A program made the position numbers and the translations under genes. The notes beneath the pieces are model-generated. The model did not search any database. It saw only the letters and a list, made by a program, of their open reading frames with translations, and was not told the origin of the DNA. A DNA stretch of 40,295 nt, taken from IMG/VR virus record IMGVR_UViG_3300032212_000054, positions 1 to 40,295 of that record. One strand, given 5' to 3'. Shown one piece after another: positions 1,860 through 38,330 of this stretch; position 1 is the first letter of the stretch; every line of letters begins with the position of its first letter. The DNA comes from a virus. Lineage: Duplodnaviria; Caudoviricetes.

Positions 1860-2158
1860 GTAAAAGAAATCAAAACGCTAAATTTCAGATTAAGGATGGT
1901 CAGTTAATTATCTCTATCGGCCTTGATGCTTTCCAGCGCTCAATCGAGTTAGATACTGATTTAGTTATCACTGAACCTGAAAAAGCAGTTTTTGCGATCA
2001 AACATGAAATCTCGCACGAAGAAGAAAATGGTCGAACGCCTTTTCATCAAATGCTAGCTAGTGCCGCCTATTCAGCATATGAAAATGGTGAAGAAGGTTT
2101 TGACGAGTCTGACGACTCAAAACAACAGATAGAAGCGCGGAGGCGAACCAGTGATTAA
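1856..2158 (+). CDS. Hypothetical phage protein
   Basis: 100-aa ORF, AAGGGGG RBS. Confidence 0.7.
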   Translation: MSKRNQNAKFQIKDGQLIISIGLDAFQRSIELDTDLVITEPEKAVFAIKHEISHEEENGRTPFHQMLASAAYSAYENGEEGFDESDDSKQQIEARRRTSD

Positions 2159-2996
2159 TGAAAAAGAAGAAACATCACAATCAGCACTTTGGATTCAATT
2201 TGCACAACCAAAGTTTATCGCTATTGCCTTTGGTGGTGGCACTAATTCAACAGCAATGCTTGTTGGAATGTATGAGCGAGGTATTAAGCCTGATCTTCTT
2301 TTGTTTGCTGATACAGGTGGAGAAAAGCCACACACCTATCAACATATAACCCAGGTTAACAATTGGTTGTTTTCGATTGGGTGGCCGCAAATCATCACAG
2401 TGAAAAAGGTTGATCTACATGGTGATGCAATGACATTAGAGCAGCTTTGTTTGAATAAAAAGATGCTACCTAGCTTGGCTTATGGATTTAAAAGTTGCTC
2501 GCTTAAATTCAAAGTCGCACCACAAGACAAATTCTGCAACAACCATGAACCATGCAAGGCGGTTTGGAAGCTAGATAATAAAGTAGTTAAGTATATTGGC
2601 TATGACGTACATGAGGAGCGACGCGTTAATCGTGGTCGTGAAATTGAGCATAAAGATAAAAAGTATACGTATGAATATCCATTGTTCGATTGGGGCTGGG
2701 ATCGTGATGATTGTATTGCGGCCATCAAGAGAGTTGGTTTATCACAACCAGGTAAATCTGCTTGTTTCTTCTGCCCTGCTTCGAAAATTAAAGAAATACG
2801 CCAACTAAATGAAAACTATCCTGAGTTAGCAAATAGAGCTTTGGCAATGGAAGCAAACGCAGAGTTAATCAGCGTAAAGGGTTTGGGGCGAAGGTTCGCG
2901 TGGTCGGAAGTACTAAGTCAAATTGATATGTTCAACGGGTTTGATCGAGATTGGGAAATGCCATGCGATTGTTTTGACGGAGATGAGGCAGCGTAA
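2151..2996 (+). CDS. PP-loop adenine nucleotide alpha-hydrolase / PAPS reductase-like protein, probable Fe-S
   Basis: AFGGGTNST PP-loop variant, LFADTGGE, IGYD..E..R, YPL.DWGW.R.DC, KSACFFCP and C-terminal PCDCF. Confidence 0.8.
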   Translation: MINEKEETSQSALWIQFAQPKFIAIAFGGGTNSTAMLVGMYERGIKPDLLLFADTGGEKPHTYQHITQVNNWLFSIGWPQIITVKKVDLHGDAMTLEQLCLNKKMLPSLAYGFKSCSLKFKVAPQDKFCNNHEPCKAVWKLDNKVVKYIGYDVHEERRVNRGREIEHKDKKYTYEYPLFDWGWDRDDCIAAIKRVGLSQPGKSACFFCPASKIKEIRQLNENYPELANRALAMEANAELISVKGLGRRFAWSEVLSQIDMFNGFDRDWEMPCDCFDGDEAA

Positions 2997-33821: not shown

Positions 33822-33853
33822 AAAAATACCTAACTATTGGCGTAGTTAGGTAT
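33820..33853 (-). terminator. Rho-independent terminator (minus strand)
   Basis: Perfect 11-bp inverted repeat ATACCTAACTA/TAGTTAGGTAT with an A run on + (T run on -). Confidence 0.7.
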
Positions 33854-33889
33854 AAGGGTATCAGTGTATGAATTTATATTATAACACAC

Positions 33890-33999
33890 TTGCAAATAAC
33901 AAGGCTATTAAATAAACTGTAGCTTACCTGTCGTGGTTGGATTCATTACCCAAGCGACATAAAACCCGAGAAAGCCGCCCTACCTTATGCGGCTTTTTT
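33890..33999 (+). ncRNA. Candidate ~75-nt small RNA with own promoter and terminator
   Basis: TTGCAA-18-TAAACT promoter; TGTCG/CGACA plus TTGG/CCAA stem; AAAGCCGC/GCGGCTTT terminator with T run; no ORF. Confidence 0.5.
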
Positions 34000-34014
34000 G
34001 TGCCTTAAATAAAG

Positions 34015-34152
34015 TTGCAAATAATAAGGTTGTTTAATATACTATAAGGGCATTACGGCTGTGGCGGCCTGATATGTAGATAAGGTTTTGTAGAGTTTTC
34101 TGAGGTGGCTAGCCCACCTATCGCCACCAGAGGATTCTACAAAGCCTTTTTT
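34015..34152 (+). promoter_or_regulatory. Promoter plus structured leader / attenuator
   Basis: TTGCAA-17-TATACT; 21-bp stem 34082-34102/34128-34148 with four G-U pairs, then a T run. Confidence 0.6.
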
Positions 34153-34459
34153 ATTACCTCAAGTTTGTCATTTCTCTTAATGCCGATATCTACGGCATAC
34201 ATCGTAAAAGTACCGTTCAGCATAAACGCAAGTTTTGTAAACAATAGTTTTATACAATAAACAGACTCCATGACGGTCTAAACAGCGTTACAAAGAAATA
34301 AGTTCCATATAGCTTCAAATGTGGAAGGGGCTAGAATACCAACTAGTAAACAAATAGGTTGCTGATATCGTTTGTTGTATTCGTGTAAGAACAAGATTTA
34401 TTAATAAAGGGTTTCTTTATAATAGTCATAGAGGCCTTATTGCCTAAAGGTTTATAAAT

Positions 34460-34908: not shown

Positions 34909-36240
34909 ATGATGATGAAGCGAGTTTATAAGCCAGAAAAAAATGTATTCGAAGCTGCTTGGGAAAGAATAGATTTTGTTTTTAATAATTTTGAGCGTGT
35001 TTACCTTTCCTTTTCTGGGGGTAAAGACTCTGGCGTTATGTTGAATTTGTGTTTGGATTACATGAAAGCTAATAACATAAAGCAAAAGCTTGGTATTCAG
35101 ATAATGGATAACGAGGCAAACTATGAGCTTTCATATGAATTTATGCACCGCATGATGCGAGATAATAGAGATATGCTTGACATCTATTGGTGCTGTATGC
35201 CTATCACGCTACCTTGCACTGTTAGTGCTTATCATATTGATTGGCAGTGTTGGGGGAAAAGAGATAAAGACAGGTGGATTAGAGAAATGCCCACTGATGA
35301 TTACGTGGTAAATATCGATAATCACGAGTTTGATTTTTTTGAAGAAGATATGCACTACGATCATTTTTGGGACGGGTTCGCTGAATGGTACGCACAAGGT
35401 AAGACTTGCGCCAATTTAATAGGTATTAGGACTTCTGAGAGTCTAAATCGTTTTAGGGCGATACTGAACGAAAGAAAGGAGACTAAAGGCGGTATGATGT
35501 GGACAAAGAAAAATACAGAGCATGTTTACAATTGCTACCCGATTTATGATTGGATGAGTAACGATGTTTGGCGCTCTAACGCTGAATACGAATGGGATTA
35601 CAATAAGCTTTATGACGTGTTTTATAAGGCTGGGATTCCTGTTGGTTCAATGCGTGTAGCCAGTCCGTTTATGAGTGAAGCTAAATCATCGCTGAATTTT
35701 TATAGGGTTATAGATCCGCATATTTGGTCTAGATTGTGTGCAAGGGTTCAGGGGGCAAACTTTATAGCCACGTACGGGAAGCAAATGGGGTACAAAAGCA
35801 TTTCATTACCAAAAGGGCATACATGGAAGTCATTTACTAAGTTTTTACTTGATACGTTACCAAAGGAATCCTCTGAAAATTTTAGGCGGCGCTTTGCTCA
35901 ATCTATACGGTTTTGGGCTAGAGTAGGGCGAGGCCTTTCTAGTGAGGTTATAGAGGATTTAAAGAAAAATAACATACCTTTCAGGATAAACGGAAAGACA
36001 GCTCACGGAAGTAAGACGTTAGATAGGGTTGCTATAAGTAGGGTTCCAGACCATTTGGATATGCTTAAGTGCCACAACAGTGATGTAACAAGCTGGAAAA
36101 GGTTTGCTATAACAATTCTGAAGAATGACCACACTTGCAAATACATGGGCTTACAACCAACAAAAGAGCAAGCTGTTAGGCAAAGGCAAATAATGGAAAA
36201 ATATAAAAACCTAGGAGATAAGAAAAATGCTAATAAGTAA
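34909..36240 (+). CDS. ibrA: IbrA/YbdN-like PAPS-reductase-family (PP-loop) protein with DUF3440-type C-terminus
   Basis: SFSGGKDSG, IGIRTSESLNR, YPIYDW, YNKLYD, MRVASPF, RVQGANF, LPKGHTWKSF, ILKNDHTCK. Confidence 0.88.
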   Translation: MMMKRVYKPEKNVFEAAWERIDFVFNNFERVYLSFSGGKDSGVMLNLCLDYMKANNIKQKLGIQIMDNEANYELSYEFMHRMMRDNRDMLDIYWCCMPITLPCTVSAYHIDWQCWGKRDKDRWIREMPTDDYVVNIDNHEFDFFEEDMHYDHFWDGFAEWYAQGKTCANLIGIRTSESLNRFRAILNERKETKGGMMWTKKNTEHVYNCYPIYDWMSNDVWRSNAEYEWDYNKLYDVFYKAGIPVGSMRVASPFMSEAKSSLNFYRVIDPHIWSRLCARVQGANFIATYGKQMGYKSISLPKGHTWKSFTKFLLDTLPKESSENFRRRFAQSIRFWARVGRGLSSEVIEDLKKNNIPFRINGKTAHGSKTLDRVAISRVPDHLDMLKCHNSDVTSWKRFAITILKNDHTCKYMGLQPTKEQAVRQRQIMEKYKNLGDKKNANK

Positions 36241-36616
36241 CGTAAAAACATTAGATAAAGAAAGGAAAGTTAAATTTCATGCTGGTGAAAGCAATAGAAT
36301 AATACTTAAATCTGACGGTATGGGGTTTGGATTAACAAAGACGGTTGTACAGCCTGGAGCTGGAAGGGTTTTTCAGCACTACAAAAACCATTTAGAGTCT
36401 TGTTATTGCGTTTCTGGATATGCGATTTTAACAGATGCAACTGACGGTAAAGAATACGGCATATCTCCGGGCGTGACTTACACGTTAAATAATAATGATC
36501 CGCATTGGTTTGAGGCGATAGAGGAAACAGTTTTAATTTGTGTGTTTAATCCGCCTTTGATCGCAAGAGAAACACACAGAGAAGATGGTTCATATTCATT
36601 AGATGGGAGTAATTAA
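36227..36616 (+). CDS. ectC: Solitary ectoine synthase-like cupin
   Basis: DGMGF, HYKNHLE..YC..G, PG..Y.L...D.H and CVFNPPL...E.H.EDG.Y match EctC signatures. Confidence 0.88.
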   Translation: MLISNVKTLDKERKVKFHAGESNRIILKSDGMGFGLTKTVVQPGAGRVFQHYKNHLESCYCVSGYAILTDATDGKEYGISPGVTYTLNNNDPHWFEAIEETVLICVFNPPLIARETHREDGSYSLDGSN

Positions 36617-37175
36617 GATGACCGAATACAAATCACCAGTTTACAATGTGATACCAGTGCCTATTGAAAAGGTAACAGCGAACGACTACAACCCAAACAG
36701 CGTGGCACCACCAGAAATGGCATTGCTTGAAACGTCAATATGGGAAGACGGTTATACGCAGCCTGTTGTGACTGTTTACGATAAAGAAAATGACAAGTAC
36801 GTTGTTGTTGATGGGTTTCATAGATTTTTAACGCTAAAAAACTCAAAAAGAATATTAGAGCGCGAGGGCGGCGTTCTTCCTTGTGTTGTTTTAGATAAAA
36901 CGATGGAAAATAGAATGGCGTCAACAATCCGCCATAATAGAGCAAGAGGTAGTCACAATATTGAGTTGATGAGCACCATTGTTTCAGAGCTTGTTGAGAT
37001 GGGTAAGGGCGATAGGTGGATATGCCAACATATAGGCATGTCACCAGATGAGCTTTTAAGAATGAAGCAAATAACAGGGTTGGCGGCTCTGTTTCAGAAT
37101 ACTGATTTTTCAGATTCATGGGAAGTTGAGGAAGACGATGAAGAAATTGAGTCGGGTATATCATCCATACAATAA
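36603..37175 (+). CDS. ibrB: IbrB/YbdM-like ParB/Sulfiredoxin-domain protein
   Basis: ANDYNPNSVAPPEM.LL..SI.EDGYTQP, VVDGFHR, RMASTIRHNRARG.H. Start may be 36618. Confidence 0.9.
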   Translation: MGVIKMTEYKSPVYNVIPVPIEKVTANDYNPNSVAPPEMALLETSIWEDGYTQPVVTVYDKENDKYVVVDGFHRFLTLKNSKRILEREGGVLPCVVLDKTMENRMASTIRHNRARGSHNIELMSTIVSELVEMGKGDRWICQHIGMSPDELLRMKQITGLAALFQNTDFSDSWEVEEDDEEIESGISSIQ

Positions 37176-37551
37176 TTGGGAAGAAATTAATTTTAATATG
37201 TGGGGTGATGTAAAGGATGAGAAATCATGGTTGCAAAAAGCTATAGATTTTACTGGCGATCATGAATTATATGGTAGGCATATGTTTAGAGTAATAAAGG
37301 AATGGCCGGTAAGTTGTGAGAACGCACTAACAGATAGCTTTATAAATAAAAAAGCTTGGGTTGGCCATGCTGCGGCGGCTTTGGCTATAAATTGCCCTGA
37401 ACACATAACTAGAAAAGCATGGGGGTTTTTAACCGATGAGCAAAAATTTTTGGCAAATAAACAAGCAGAGCGAGCAATACGAACATGGCAAAACAGCTAT
37501 ATCGAGAGCAAAAAGCTATATTCAGGTGTGGGAGGGTCGTTGCTACTCTGA
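37126..37551 (+). CDS. Trp-rich hypothetical protein in ibrAB operon
   Basis: RVYHPY..WEE...MW, EWP.SCE.ALT, AW.GHAA; overlaps both neighbours. Probable start is 37138. Confidence 0.75.
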   Translation: MRKTMKKLSRVYHPYNNWEEINFNMWGDVKDEKSWLQKAIDFTGDHELYGRHMFRVIKEWPVSCENALTDSFINKKAWVGHAAAALAINCPEHITRKAWGFLTDEQKFLANKQAERAIRTWQNSYIESKKLYSGVGGSLLL

Positions 37552-37744
37552 CGGTATACCAGATGAGGTTTCTGATAGGTTAATGGAGTCTATGAGAGTG
37601 CCAAGCTATAAAGCTATTGCTTTGGCTGTGTTAGATAATGATCTTAGTTTGTACGGTCTTGGTTTTACGCCGCATGTTAGTCACTGGTACAGAACTGTAA
37701 AGCAGTTAAATAAGAAAGAAACAGATCAGATGGAGATGTTTTAG
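37436..37744 (+). CDS. Stand-alone paralogue of the IbrA C-terminal subdomain
   Basis: VPSYKAIALAVLDNDLSLYGLGFTP aligns without gaps to VTSWKRFAITILKNDHTCKYMGLQP of IbrA. Confidence 0.65.
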   Translation: MSKNFWQINKQSEQYEHGKTAISRAKSYIQVWEGRCYSDGIPDEVSDRLMESMRVPSYKAIALAVLDNDLSLYGLGFTPHVSHWYRTVKQLNKKETDQMEMF

Positions 37745-37745
37745 G

Positions 37746-38330
37746 ATGAAAAGGAAAATAATACAGCTACTAACTAACGATACGCACTCACTAATAGCTC
37801 TATGTAATGACGGCACAGTGTTAAGGGAAGATAGTAACCAGTGGGCTTTAAATAATTGGGACGTGCCGCAGCCCGACAATAAAAAAACTAAATCAACTAA
37901 AGAGGAGTTTGATTTTTCAAAGTGGCCTAATTCAGCAGATCCTAAAATATTCAATGAGCTATGTAGGTCTAGAAAATCAAAAAGAAGCGTTATCATGACG
38001 CAGGCTTATATAGATTCAGCGACTAAACACTTGCACGATCTAAACTCTAAAGGTGTTGATGTTAATAAGGCGCTTAGCATTGCCGCTAAACATGGCTGGC
38101 AAGGTTTTAAAGCTAGTTGGGTGCTAAATGAAATACAGTCAGAACCGGAGCGTTCAGAAGAGCAGCCTCAAACCGTACAAGACGTTGTTAATTTTCTCAA
38201 TGACGGAAGACTTAAAAATATTGCTGATATACCTACCAACCTAAGGAAAGAAGTAGAGACTTTGTATAGGGTTGGTAGGTTTAATCCAGAAACATGTAAA
38301 AAATTAGAGTTGATAGGTTTGGCAATATGA
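37746..38330 (+). CDS. Replication-protein-like (initiator C-terminal-type domain)
   Basis: FDFSKWP...RK.K...TQ...GWQGFKASW resembles C-terminal domains of phage replication proteins; no N-terminal HTH seen. Confidence 0.5.
   Translation: MKRKIIQLLTNDTHSLIALCNDGTVLREDSNQWALNNWDVPQPDNKKTKSTKEEFDFSKWPNSADPKIFNELCRSRKSKRSVIMTQAYIDSATKHLHDLNSKGVDVNKALSIAAKHGWQGFKASWVLNEIQSEPERSEEQPQTVQDVVNFLNDGRLKNIADIPTNLRKEVETLYRVGRFNPETCKKLELIGLAI

What the first reader, a model, noticed from the sequence alone, without database searches (positions are those of the whole stretch)
34909..37744. ibrA-ectC-ibrB-orf-orf: a solitary ectoine-synthase cupin inside a PP-loop/ParB operon, candidate new DNA or nucleotide modification system
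Seen: five overlapping genes, with an EctC-like cupin wedged between an IbrA-type PP-loop protein and its IbrB ParB/Srx partner. No ectA or ectB is recognisable in the window. Known: IbrA/IbrB (YbdN/YbdM) normally sit side by side and their chemistry is unresolved as far as I know; PAPS-reductase-fold relatives DndC and SspD act in DNA phosphorothioation; EctC is an Fe-dependent cyclo-condensing dehydratase acting on N-acetyl-diaminobutyrate. Inference: this is unlikely to be an osmolyte gene. The operon could activate a substrate with ATP (IbrA/IbrB) and cyclise an amino-acyl adduct (EctC), giving a DNA modification, a modified nucleotide or an anti-defence metabolite.
Basis: partly seen in the sequence, partly recalled or inferred. 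Interest (0 to 1): 0.87.

Follow-up and report, generated by a model that had tools for sequence, protein, structure and literature searches.

The report
Phage IbrAB ectoine-ring enzyme cassette
Many phages carry this five-gene set, which pairs an ectoine-synthase-like enzyme, and in some relatives an ectoine-hydroxylase-like enzyme, with the unstudied ATP-using IbrA/IbrB pair but none of the genes that normally supply ectoine's precursor, so it likely builds an ectoine-type ring by a new route and possibly attaches it to the phage's DNA.

Summary
Confirmed. Five overlapping genes in a 40-kb phage: IbrA (PP-loop), EctC-like cupin, IbrB (ParB domain plus HTH-like stretch), orf4 (no known fold found) and orf5 (copy of the IbrA C-terminal module). 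Not a one-off: 79 of the 80 closest IbrA loci carry the EctC-like gene; it is fused to IbrB in 37 of 96 contigs, including mycobacteriophage Gaia. The cupins form their own branch, keep the iron and amino-acid residues, and replace Trp21 (0 of 79). No ectA/ectB in 187 loci. Key result: five distinct EctD-like hydroxylases with the EctD signature core lie inside this cassette; all 4 viral EctD-like genes found do. So the pathway likely makes an ectoine-type ring without EctAB. Best reading (0.45): the ring ends up on phage DNA; rival (0.28): a free small molecule or nucleotide conjugate. Nothing is shown biochemically; the genome still avoids palindromes. The scan noted this cassette before on other DNA; the lines shown did not mention EctD. 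No describing paper found in ten searches. Gaia and XCL1123 are cultured, so it is directly testable.

The parts
34909..36240 (+). IbrA: PP-loop (SGGKDS) enzyme of the FAD-synthase/CysD/PAPS-reductase fold plus DUF3440 C-terminal part
   Evidence: model pLDDT 71.5; VIA Z 14.2 to human FAD synthase 8rom (rmsd 3.2, 170 aligned), Z 13.5 to CysD 1zun (rmsd 2.9, 167 aligned); motif conservation
36227..36616 (+). EctC-like Fe cupin of a cassette-specific clade; Glu57/Tyr85/His93 kept, Trp21 replaced, Cys59 and Phe95 fixed
   Evidence: residue roles from PMC6344544 (passages)
36618..37175 (+). IbrB: ParB/Srx nucleotide-binding domain (DGFHR, HNRARG) followed by an HTH-like stretch; fused to the EctC-like protein in many relatives
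   Evidence: fusions; start choice
37138..37551 (+). orf4: all-alpha protein, large unnamed family tied to IbrAB with or without EctC; likely adaptor
   Evidence: no Pfam/PHROG/NCBIfam hit; 816 representatives; model pLDDT 92, no clear fold match; beside IbrAB in EctC-free phages Mwe-JY13 and Amjad_SA; fusions
37436..37744 (+). orf5: stand-alone copy of the IbrA C-terminal module, overlapping the end of orf4 by 116 bases in the +1 frame
   Evidence: phrog_15645 E 1.5e-5; hits the C-termini of Amjad_SA and Mwe-JY13 IbrA; fused to IbrA in L040 and to orf4 in L082 and 7 of 150 representatives; start ATG in 22 of 22 comparable loci
37746..38330 (+). replication-initiator-like gene directly behind the cassette (context, not part of it)
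   Evidence: phrog_678 E 1.4e-11

Best explanation
The five genes are a conserved phage unit that likely makes an ectoine-type ring (a cyclic amidine of an amino acid) without EctA and EctB and likely leaves it on the phage's own DNA as a post-replicative mark. Shown: the genes, their linkage, four kinds of fusion, the kept EctC iron and amino-acid residues, the missing ectA/ectB, and an EctD-like gene inside five variants. Inferred, step by step: (1) IbrB binds an NTP and DNA and positions the complex, orf4 and orf5 acting as adaptors; (2) IbrA uses ATP to adenylate a phosphoryl oxygen, as FAD synthase, CysD and the phosphorothioate enzymes do, and a nitrogen of an amino-acid unit displaces AMP; (3) the EctC-like cupin closes the free alpha-amine of that unit onto an iron-bound amide carbonyl, with a pocket reshaped for an acyl group or chain other than that of N-acetyl-diaminobutyrate; (4) in some relatives, not in this window, an EctD-like dioxygenase hydroxylates the ring and a methyltransferase-like protein may cap it. 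Because both cupins have enclosed pockets for a free amino acid, the ring is more likely closed on a small precursor and then loaded than closed on DNA; the order of steps 2 and 3 and the amino acid are unknown. The purpose would be to blunt host nucleases.
For: Linkage: 79 of 80 best IbrA loci (of 286 found) have the EctC-like gene; all 79 metagenome EctC-like loci other than the window's own have IbrA or IbrB beside it; gene order is shuffled but content kept; locus G+C 0.31-0.62, cultured hosts Pseudoalteromonas and Mycobacterium. Fusions: EctC-IbrB 37 of 96 contigs, orf5-IbrA (L040), orf4-orf5, IbrB-orf4. Ring chemistry: Ser22, Arg24, Thr39, Tyr52, His55, Glu57, Tyr85, His93 and the lid residues in 79 of 79; EctD-like genes with the HSDFETWH core directly after IbrA in 4 of 4 viral hits and in L240, five distinct proteins 40-47% identical to the L240 protein, best family TIGR02408 E 1e-46 to 1e-51. 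No EctA/EctB in 187 sequences, against 6 and 24 hits in 44 control loci. DNA link: HTH-like stretch in IbrB; cassette among replication and recombination genes; more distant IbrA/IbrB pairs sit with SNF2 helicases, methyl-, glycosyl- and acetyltransferases or next to terminase; a phage ParB is required by a DNA thymine dioxygenase (PMC13229309, passages); TdpC alone suffices for backbone modification and DndC/SspD share the fold (PMC12914056, passages).
Against: No experiment. The window still avoids palindromes (GATC 0.46, CGCG 0.53, CCGG 0.55 of expected; six-base palindromes 0.75), so any protection is partial or recent. EctC binds a free alpha-amine and carboxylate under a lid (PMC6344544), which suits a small molecule better than DNA. 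The EctD-like gene is rare (3 of 187) and scores about half the equivalog cut-off (158-173 of 336.5 bits). One intact cassette has a 1-Cys peroxiredoxin where EctC should be (L056), so EctC is not always needed. E. coli ybdNM is chromosomal and co-regulated with citrate lyase genes (PMC9068703, passages). The HTH call rests on a weak match to a designed HTH repeat. The loci were seeded from this clade and include near-copies.
Confidence: 0.45

Rival explanations
1. The same enzymes make a free ectoine-type small molecule or nucleotide conjugate (for example IbrB phosphorylates an amino acid as SerK/SbnI do, IbrA turns it into an ADP-linked compound as FAD synthase does, the cupins close and hydroxylate the ring) that acts against a host defence, as a signal, or as a protectant; DNA is not modified.
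For: IbrA's best folds adenylate small molecules; IbrB has weak hits to SerK (E 0.0013) and SbnI; enclosed pockets of EctC and EctD; cellular solitary EctC proteins sharing Cys59 (4 of 5) sit in natural-product-like clusters with AMP-binding enzymes, ketosynthases or a halogenase; palindrome avoidance persists.
Against: SerK and Srx lack an HTH (10.1101/2025.10.10.680097, passages) while IbrB appears to have one; distant IbrAB pairs travel with SNF2 motors and packaging genes; no transporter or exporter recurs in 96 loci.
Confidence: 0.28
2. The complex puts the ectoine-type group on a host RNA or protein (host takeover or gene control), in line with the E. coli name 'co-activator of prophage gene expression'.
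For: TilS, TtuA and NcsA, tRNA-modifying PP-loop enzymes, are among the fold matches; GenBank labels for IbrA/IbrB; early-gene location.
Against: The phosphoryl-adenylating subgroup scores higher than TilS (Z 14.2 and 13.5 against 11.5); no tRNA- or protein-targeting gene recurs.
Confidence: 0.1
3. Ordinary osmolyte gene: the cupin converts host N-acetyl-diaminobutyrate to ectoine (and EctD to hydroxyectoine) and merely rides beside IbrAB.
For: Passes the Pfam and NCBIfam EctC cut-offs; Trp21 is replaced by Phe in 42 of 79, a mild change, and the window's subclade has Phe three places earlier, as solitary EctCs have Trp; a solitary P. syringae EctC made ectoine in an H. elongata mutant (PMC5924519, passages); EctC plus EctD is the normal end of the ectoine pathway.
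Against: In-frame fusion to IbrB in 37 of 96 contigs; no cassette-type EctC found away from IbrA/IbrB (0 of 79); separate branch from 27-33 cellular EctCs, SH-aLRT 99-100; Trp21Ala leaves 9.7% activity and Trp21 is invariant in 437 cluster EctCs; hosts that make the precursor already have EctC (established knowledge).
Confidence: 0.09
4. A compact phosphorothioate or other sulfur-transfer system, the cupin or a peroxiredoxin handling a sulfur species.
For: IbrA hits PADLOC DndC at E 1.6e-6; five cysteines are fixed in this IbrA clade; Cys59 beside the cupin iron ligand; peroxiredoxin in L056; DndB is a ParB-family partner of DndC (PMC10853773, passages).
Against: 18 bits on TIGR03183 (cut-off 290); only Cys409 is shared by 10 of 12 DUF3440-type IbrAs and by 0 of 6 distant ones; no desulfurase or P-loop ATPase in the cassette; does not explain EctD.
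Confidence: 0.08

Closest known systems
IbrA/IbrB (E. coli ECOR-9 island; K-12 YbdN/YbdM; phrog_2302 + phrog_2159; e.g. Streptococcus phage CHPC877, Escherichia phage PhiR5_2)
   Same: Same two families, same PP-loop, D-x-E, G-x-R-x-x-E-S-x-x-R and P-x-Y-D-W motifs; adjacent and co-oriented.
   Different: Here with an EctC-like cupin, orf4 and orf5; other IbrAB loci have an SNF2 helicase and a 110-130 aa gene, or transferases, and no EctC. No biochemical function found in print for any of them.
Ectoine synthase EctC and hydroxylase EctD of ectABC(D) clusters (PDB 5ONM/5ONN/5ONO, 5BXX)
   Same: Cupin, iron triad, alpha-amine and lid residues; EctD signature core in five variants.
   Different: No EctA/EctB; Trp21 absent; Cys59, Phe95, Lys/Arg38 and Trp/Gln50 instead of Val, Leu, Asp/Glu and Met/Phe/Ile; own branch; fused to a ParB-family protein. 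The EctD-like proteins have Gly-Trp in place of the signature's first Phe and score below the equivalog cut-off.
Solitary cellular EctC-type proteins (groups 2-3 of Czech et al., PMC5924519)
   Same: No ectAB; Gly at the Trp21 place with an aromatic three residues earlier, Cys59, Thr37.
   Different: They keep Trp and Leu95, lie outside the cassette branch, and sit in metabolic or natural-product-like clusters, not with IbrAB.
Dnd/Ssp/Tdp/BREX-4 phosphorothioation (DndC, SspD, TdpC, BrxP; DndB)
   Same: PAPS-reductase-fold enzyme with a ParB-family neighbour acting on DNA.
   Different: Far below the DndC cut-off, cysteines not conserved family-wide, no DndD/SspC ATPase, no restriction partner, phage-borne.
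ParB-dependent phage thymine dioxygenases (PMC13229309)
   Same: A phage ParB-fold protein serving a base-modifying Fe enzyme.
   Different: Those ParBs lack a DNA-binding domain and the enzyme is a TET/JBP dioxygenase; no PP-loop partner is mentioned in the passages seen.
Mycobacteriophage Gaia/Nebkiss gp103-107 and Pseudoalteromonas phage XCL1123
   Same: The same cassette, labelled 'PAPS reductase' and 'ectoine synthase/ParB multidomain protein' in GenBank.
   Different: Labels only; Gaia has the EctC-IbrB fusion and an inserted gene labelled GIY-YIG-like in Nebkiss; XCL1123's record does not annotate orf5.

Membership tests
IbrA/IbrB pair | PAPS-reductase-like domain plus DUF3440 | tested here: met
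IbrA/IbrB pair | Linked ParB/Srx protein of phrog_2159 | tested here: met
   (IbrB in 94 of 96 contigs)
IbrA/IbrB pair | Activates prophage gene expression (recalled phenotype; GenBank note) | not testable with these tools
   label seen; original paper not read
EctC protein family (PF06339) | Profile score above cut-off; iron triad Glu57/Tyr84/His92 | tested here: met
   79 of 79
Bona fide ectoine synthase | Trp21 (invariant in 437 cluster EctCs, shifted but kept in solitary ones) | tested here: not met
   no Trp in the six residues before Ser22 in 79 of 79; Trp in 27 of 28 canonical (PMC6344544)
Bona fide ectoine synthase | Carboxylate-binding Asn/His38 | tested here: inconclusive
   Thr in the window and 49 of 79, His in 18 of 79; His/Asn in 28 of 28 canonical
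Bona fide ectoine synthase | ectA and ectB in the cluster | tested here: not met
   0 of 187, one Vibrio query each; controls 6 and 24 of 44; 0 of 7 EctD-bearing loci
Bona fide ectoine synthase | Converts N-gamma-acetyl-diaminobutyrate to ectoine | not testable with these tools
   needs enzyme assay
Ectoine hydroxylase EctD (relatives only) | 17-residue signature | tested here: inconclusive
   W-H-S-D-F-E-T-W-H and D-G-M-P kept in 5 of 5, first Phe and usually the Glu changed
Ectoine hydroxylase EctD (relatives only) | TIGR02408 equivalog cut-off 336.5 bits | tested here: not met
   158-173 bits for 3 of the proteins, two of them cut by contig ends
Dnd/Ssp phosphorothioation | DndC/SspD orthologue | tested here: not met
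   18.4 bits, cut-off 290.4; PADLOC E 1.6e-6 over 63 residues only
Dnd/Ssp phosphorothioation | P-loop ATPase DndD/SspC/BrxC in the cluster | tested here: not met
   none inside the cassette; TdpC needs none, so a Tdp-like route is not excluded by this
Dnd/Ssp phosphorothioation | 4Fe-4S cysteines | tested here: inconclusive
   five fixed cysteines in this clade, not family-wide; geometry not measurable here
ParABS partition ParB | TIGR00180 above cut-off, parA partner | tested here: not met
   18.5 bits, cut-off 58.45; no parA among recurring neighbours

The most novel reading that the evidence does not exclude
Phages have joined the last two steps of ectoine synthesis (EctC, EctD) to the IbrA/IbrB machine to write an ectoine- or hydroxyectoine-type group onto their DNA: a new class of DNA hypermodification, a route to the ectoine ring that needs no EctA/EctB, and the first chemistry for the IbrA/IbrB (YbdN/YbdM) family, whose other versions would load other groups in the same way.
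Probability: 0.3. Interest if true: 0.95.

Novelty: new variant of a known kind. Interest (0 to 1): 0.8.

Why it matters
IbrA/IbrB homologues are spread over phages of many phyla (224 GenBank phage records hit) and E. coli K-12, with no chemistry found in print. This variant ties them to two enzymes whose reactions are known in detail, which narrows the product to an ectoine-type ring and gives masses to look for. It also warns against counting viral ectC and ectD as osmoprotection genes: all 4 viral EctD-like genes found lie in this cassette. Cultured carriers (Gaia, Nebkiss on M. smegmatis; XCL1123) make the test a routine LC-MS experiment.

Tried and rejected
One-off insertion: rejected. 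Programmed frameshift joining orf4 and orf5: not supported; many relatives have a separate start for orf5 and the frame offset varies; the conserved ATG lies in orf4's Asp-Glu codons, so it is weak evidence on its own. Fold of orf4: Foldseek no match at E 0.001, VIA best Z 4.5, ESM Atlas no usable hit; this shows neither a new fold nor a function. IbrA residues past about 290 were barely tested by the fold search; WD-repeat hits are spurious. IbrA-IbrB complex prediction: tool not available, no verdict. Sequencing runs: one DNA holder, possibly the source; no RNA holder listed. Promoter and terminator scan: no excess over shuffles. Genome-contig scan with the cupin: 2 loci, neither with the cassette; 272 genomes of two phyla gave only canonical EctCs above the cut-off in those searched. 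Single-sequence scan with the L240 EctD found nothing; the alignment found 4. Five 'orf5+IbrA' labels are profile cross-hits, not fusions. The careful EctC tree did not finish; quick trees were used (the second used 21 of 79 cassette sequences). Literature: ten searches gave no paper on this cassette; subscription journals are mostly not held, Iyer et al. 2013 on phage DNA-modification systems was not held, Sandt et al. 2002 and An et al. 2025 were not read, and no supplements were opened, so a mention there cannot be excluded. PMC12147183, PMC8092301, PMC12839542, PMC8813620 and PMC4541368 (passages) gave no mechanism.
Full report
Observation. The five ORFs are present as described in a 40,295-base phage record, between small early genes and a replication-initiator-like gene. 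IbrA carries PAPS_reduct and DUF3440, the middle gene passes the ectoine-synthase cut-offs of Pfam and NCBIfam, and IbrB matches phrog_2159. Neither EctA, EctB nor EctD is found in the window.

Conservation. A scan with the cupin gave 22 viral loci; with XCL1123, Gaia and one gut record that makes 25, of which 24 carry the cassette. Seeding with IbrA instead, 79 of the 80 best of 286 loci have the cupin; the seed alignment came from this clade, so this describes the clade, not all IbrAs. Of 96 distinct contigs 88 have all five genes; five of the other eight stop at a contig end, L030 ends after an EctD-like gene, L073 was not examined further and L056 has a peroxiredoxin in the cupin's place. 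In 79 metagenome loci (best 80 of 412, the window's own dropped; some overlap the viral set) the cupin always has IbrA or IbrB beside it and is fused to IbrB in 55. Order is shuffled in several ways while content stays. Four fusions link the genes: EctC-IbrB, IbrB-orf4, orf4-orf5, orf5-IbrA. A shared complex is inferred from these; it could not be modelled.

The cupin. In P. lautus EctC, Glu57, Tyr84 and His92 hold iron; Trp21, Arg25, Asn38, Thr40, Tyr52 and Glu57 hold the substrate; Trp21Ala leaves 9.7% activity (PMC6344544, passages). All 79 cassette proteins keep the iron triad, Ser, Arg, Thr, Tyr and the lid residues; none has Trp21 (Phe 42, Gly 34, other 3), and all have Cys59 and Phe95. 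They fall on one side of a branch against 27, then 33, cellular EctCs (SH-aLRT 100 and 99, quick trees). Five cellular solitary EctCs share some of these changes and sit in natural-product-like or catabolic clusters. So the ring-closing chemistry is probably kept and the substrate probably changed. EctC is known to accept glutamine weakly and to open ectoine analogues (PMC5924519, passages).

The EctD-like gene. A control search for ect genes found EctD-like proteins in three cassette loci. An alignment-based scan of the viral collection found four such genes, all directly behind ibrA in this cassette. Together they are five distinct proteins (L227 equals L251, L252 equals L030), all with the core of the EctD signature (PMC5924519, section 5.2.4), best family TIGR02408 but about half its cut-off. 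One (L253) is followed by a methyltransferase-like gene, recognised by eye only. None has ectA or ectB. Recruiting a second ectoine-pathway enzyme into the same operon is the strongest sign that the product is an ectoine-type ring, and that IbrA/IbrB stand where EctA/EctB would, or take the ring on.

IbrA, IbrB, orf4, orf5. The IbrA model (pLDDT 71.5) best matches FAD synthase, CysD and APS/PAPS reductases, ahead of TilS; the first two adenylate a phosphate or sulfate oxygen (established knowledge). It is far from DndC by profile, and its cysteines are not conserved across the wider family. IbrB has the ParB/Srx domain, weak hits to ParB, Noc, SbnI and SerK, and an HTH-like stretch at residues 125-153. 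orf4 is a confidently modelled all-helical protein with 816 representatives and no clear fold match; it also accompanies EctC-free IbrAB pairs. orf5 is a free copy of the IbrA C-terminal module.

Target. For DNA: the HTH-like stretch, the replication-gene context, the SNF2, methyl-, glycosyl- and acetyltransferase or terminase neighbours of distant IbrAB pairs, and precedents for ParB-assisted phage DNA modification and single-gene backbone modification by this fold (PMC13229309, PMC12914056, passages). Against: enclosed small-molecule pockets, persisting palindrome avoidance, a chromosomal, metabolically regulated ybdNM in E. coli (PMC9068703, passages) and no direct data. I put DNA at 0.45, a free metabolite or nucleotide conjugate at 0.28, host RNA or protein at 0.10, plain osmolyte at 0.09 and sulfur transfer at 0.08.

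Novelty. GenBank already labels the Gaia and XCL1123 genes, and this scan noted the five-gene cassette on other genomes (AI notes, the cassette re-tested here; the few lines shown do not mention EctD). Ten literature searches found no description of the cassette or of IbrA/IbrB chemistry, within the limits of the library. It is a member of the IbrA/IbrB kind and not a bona fide ect cluster or Dnd system; if the ring ends on DNA it would be a new class of modification.

Verdict. Real, widely conserved, not an ordinary osmolyte gene, mechanism narrowed but unproven, directly testable in cultured phages. Interest 0.8.

Noticed in passing
window 2151-2996 +: A second, unrelated PAPS-reductase-fold gene (phrog_424 E 3e-38; PADLOC SspD E 1.8e-15; cysteine-rich) among small late-early genes; a 50% identical relative lies near the cassette in L005.
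   Followed up: partly
L056 3868-4617 +: 1-Cys peroxiredoxin overlapping ibrA and ibrB in place of the EctC-like gene; curious because IbrB has the sulfiredoxin fold. Single case.
   Followed up: partly
L253 5864-6397 +: 177-aa gene between the EctD-like and EctC-like genes with SAM-methyltransferase-like motifs by eye; no Pfam hit.
   Followed up: partly
L251 5774-7270 +: EctC-IbrB fusion of 499 aa with about 200 unassigned residues between the two domains.
   Followed up: no
L024 7851-8225, L034 1391-1666, L040 6313-6648, L090 6293-6616, L116 4513-5262: GIY-YIG-like endonuclease genes inserted inside the cassette at several positions.
   Followed up: partly
L045 2918-5203, L046 2985-5185; L031, L040, L058, L077: The order ibrB-orf4-orf5 mirrors ibrB-orf4-ibrA of EctC-free phages, and orf5 resembles their IbrA C-terminus: orf5 may be the remnant of an older ibrA displaced by the present one.
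   Followed up: partly
L163, L165, L169, L170: Solitary cellular EctC-type genes inside natural-product-like clusters (AMP-binding enzymes, ketosynthases, carrier protein, halogenase, tryptophan genes): likely tailoring enzymes mislabelled ectoine synthase.
   Followed up: partly
L042 2406-4014, L043 2505-3984, L044 5792-7349, L051 1923-3454: EctC-free IbrAB loci share a short SNF2-like helicase and an unnamed 107-128 aa gene across Streptococcus, Lactobacillus, Fusobacterium and Flavobacterium phages.
   Followed up: no
window 33826-34260: Long non-coding stretch upstream of the cassette with an 11-pair hairpin at 33826-33853 and further inverted repeats by eye.
   Followed up: no
L025 1244-1633: A gut 'phage' record with a canonical actinobacterial-type EctC and no cassette; possibly host DNA.
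   Followed up: no
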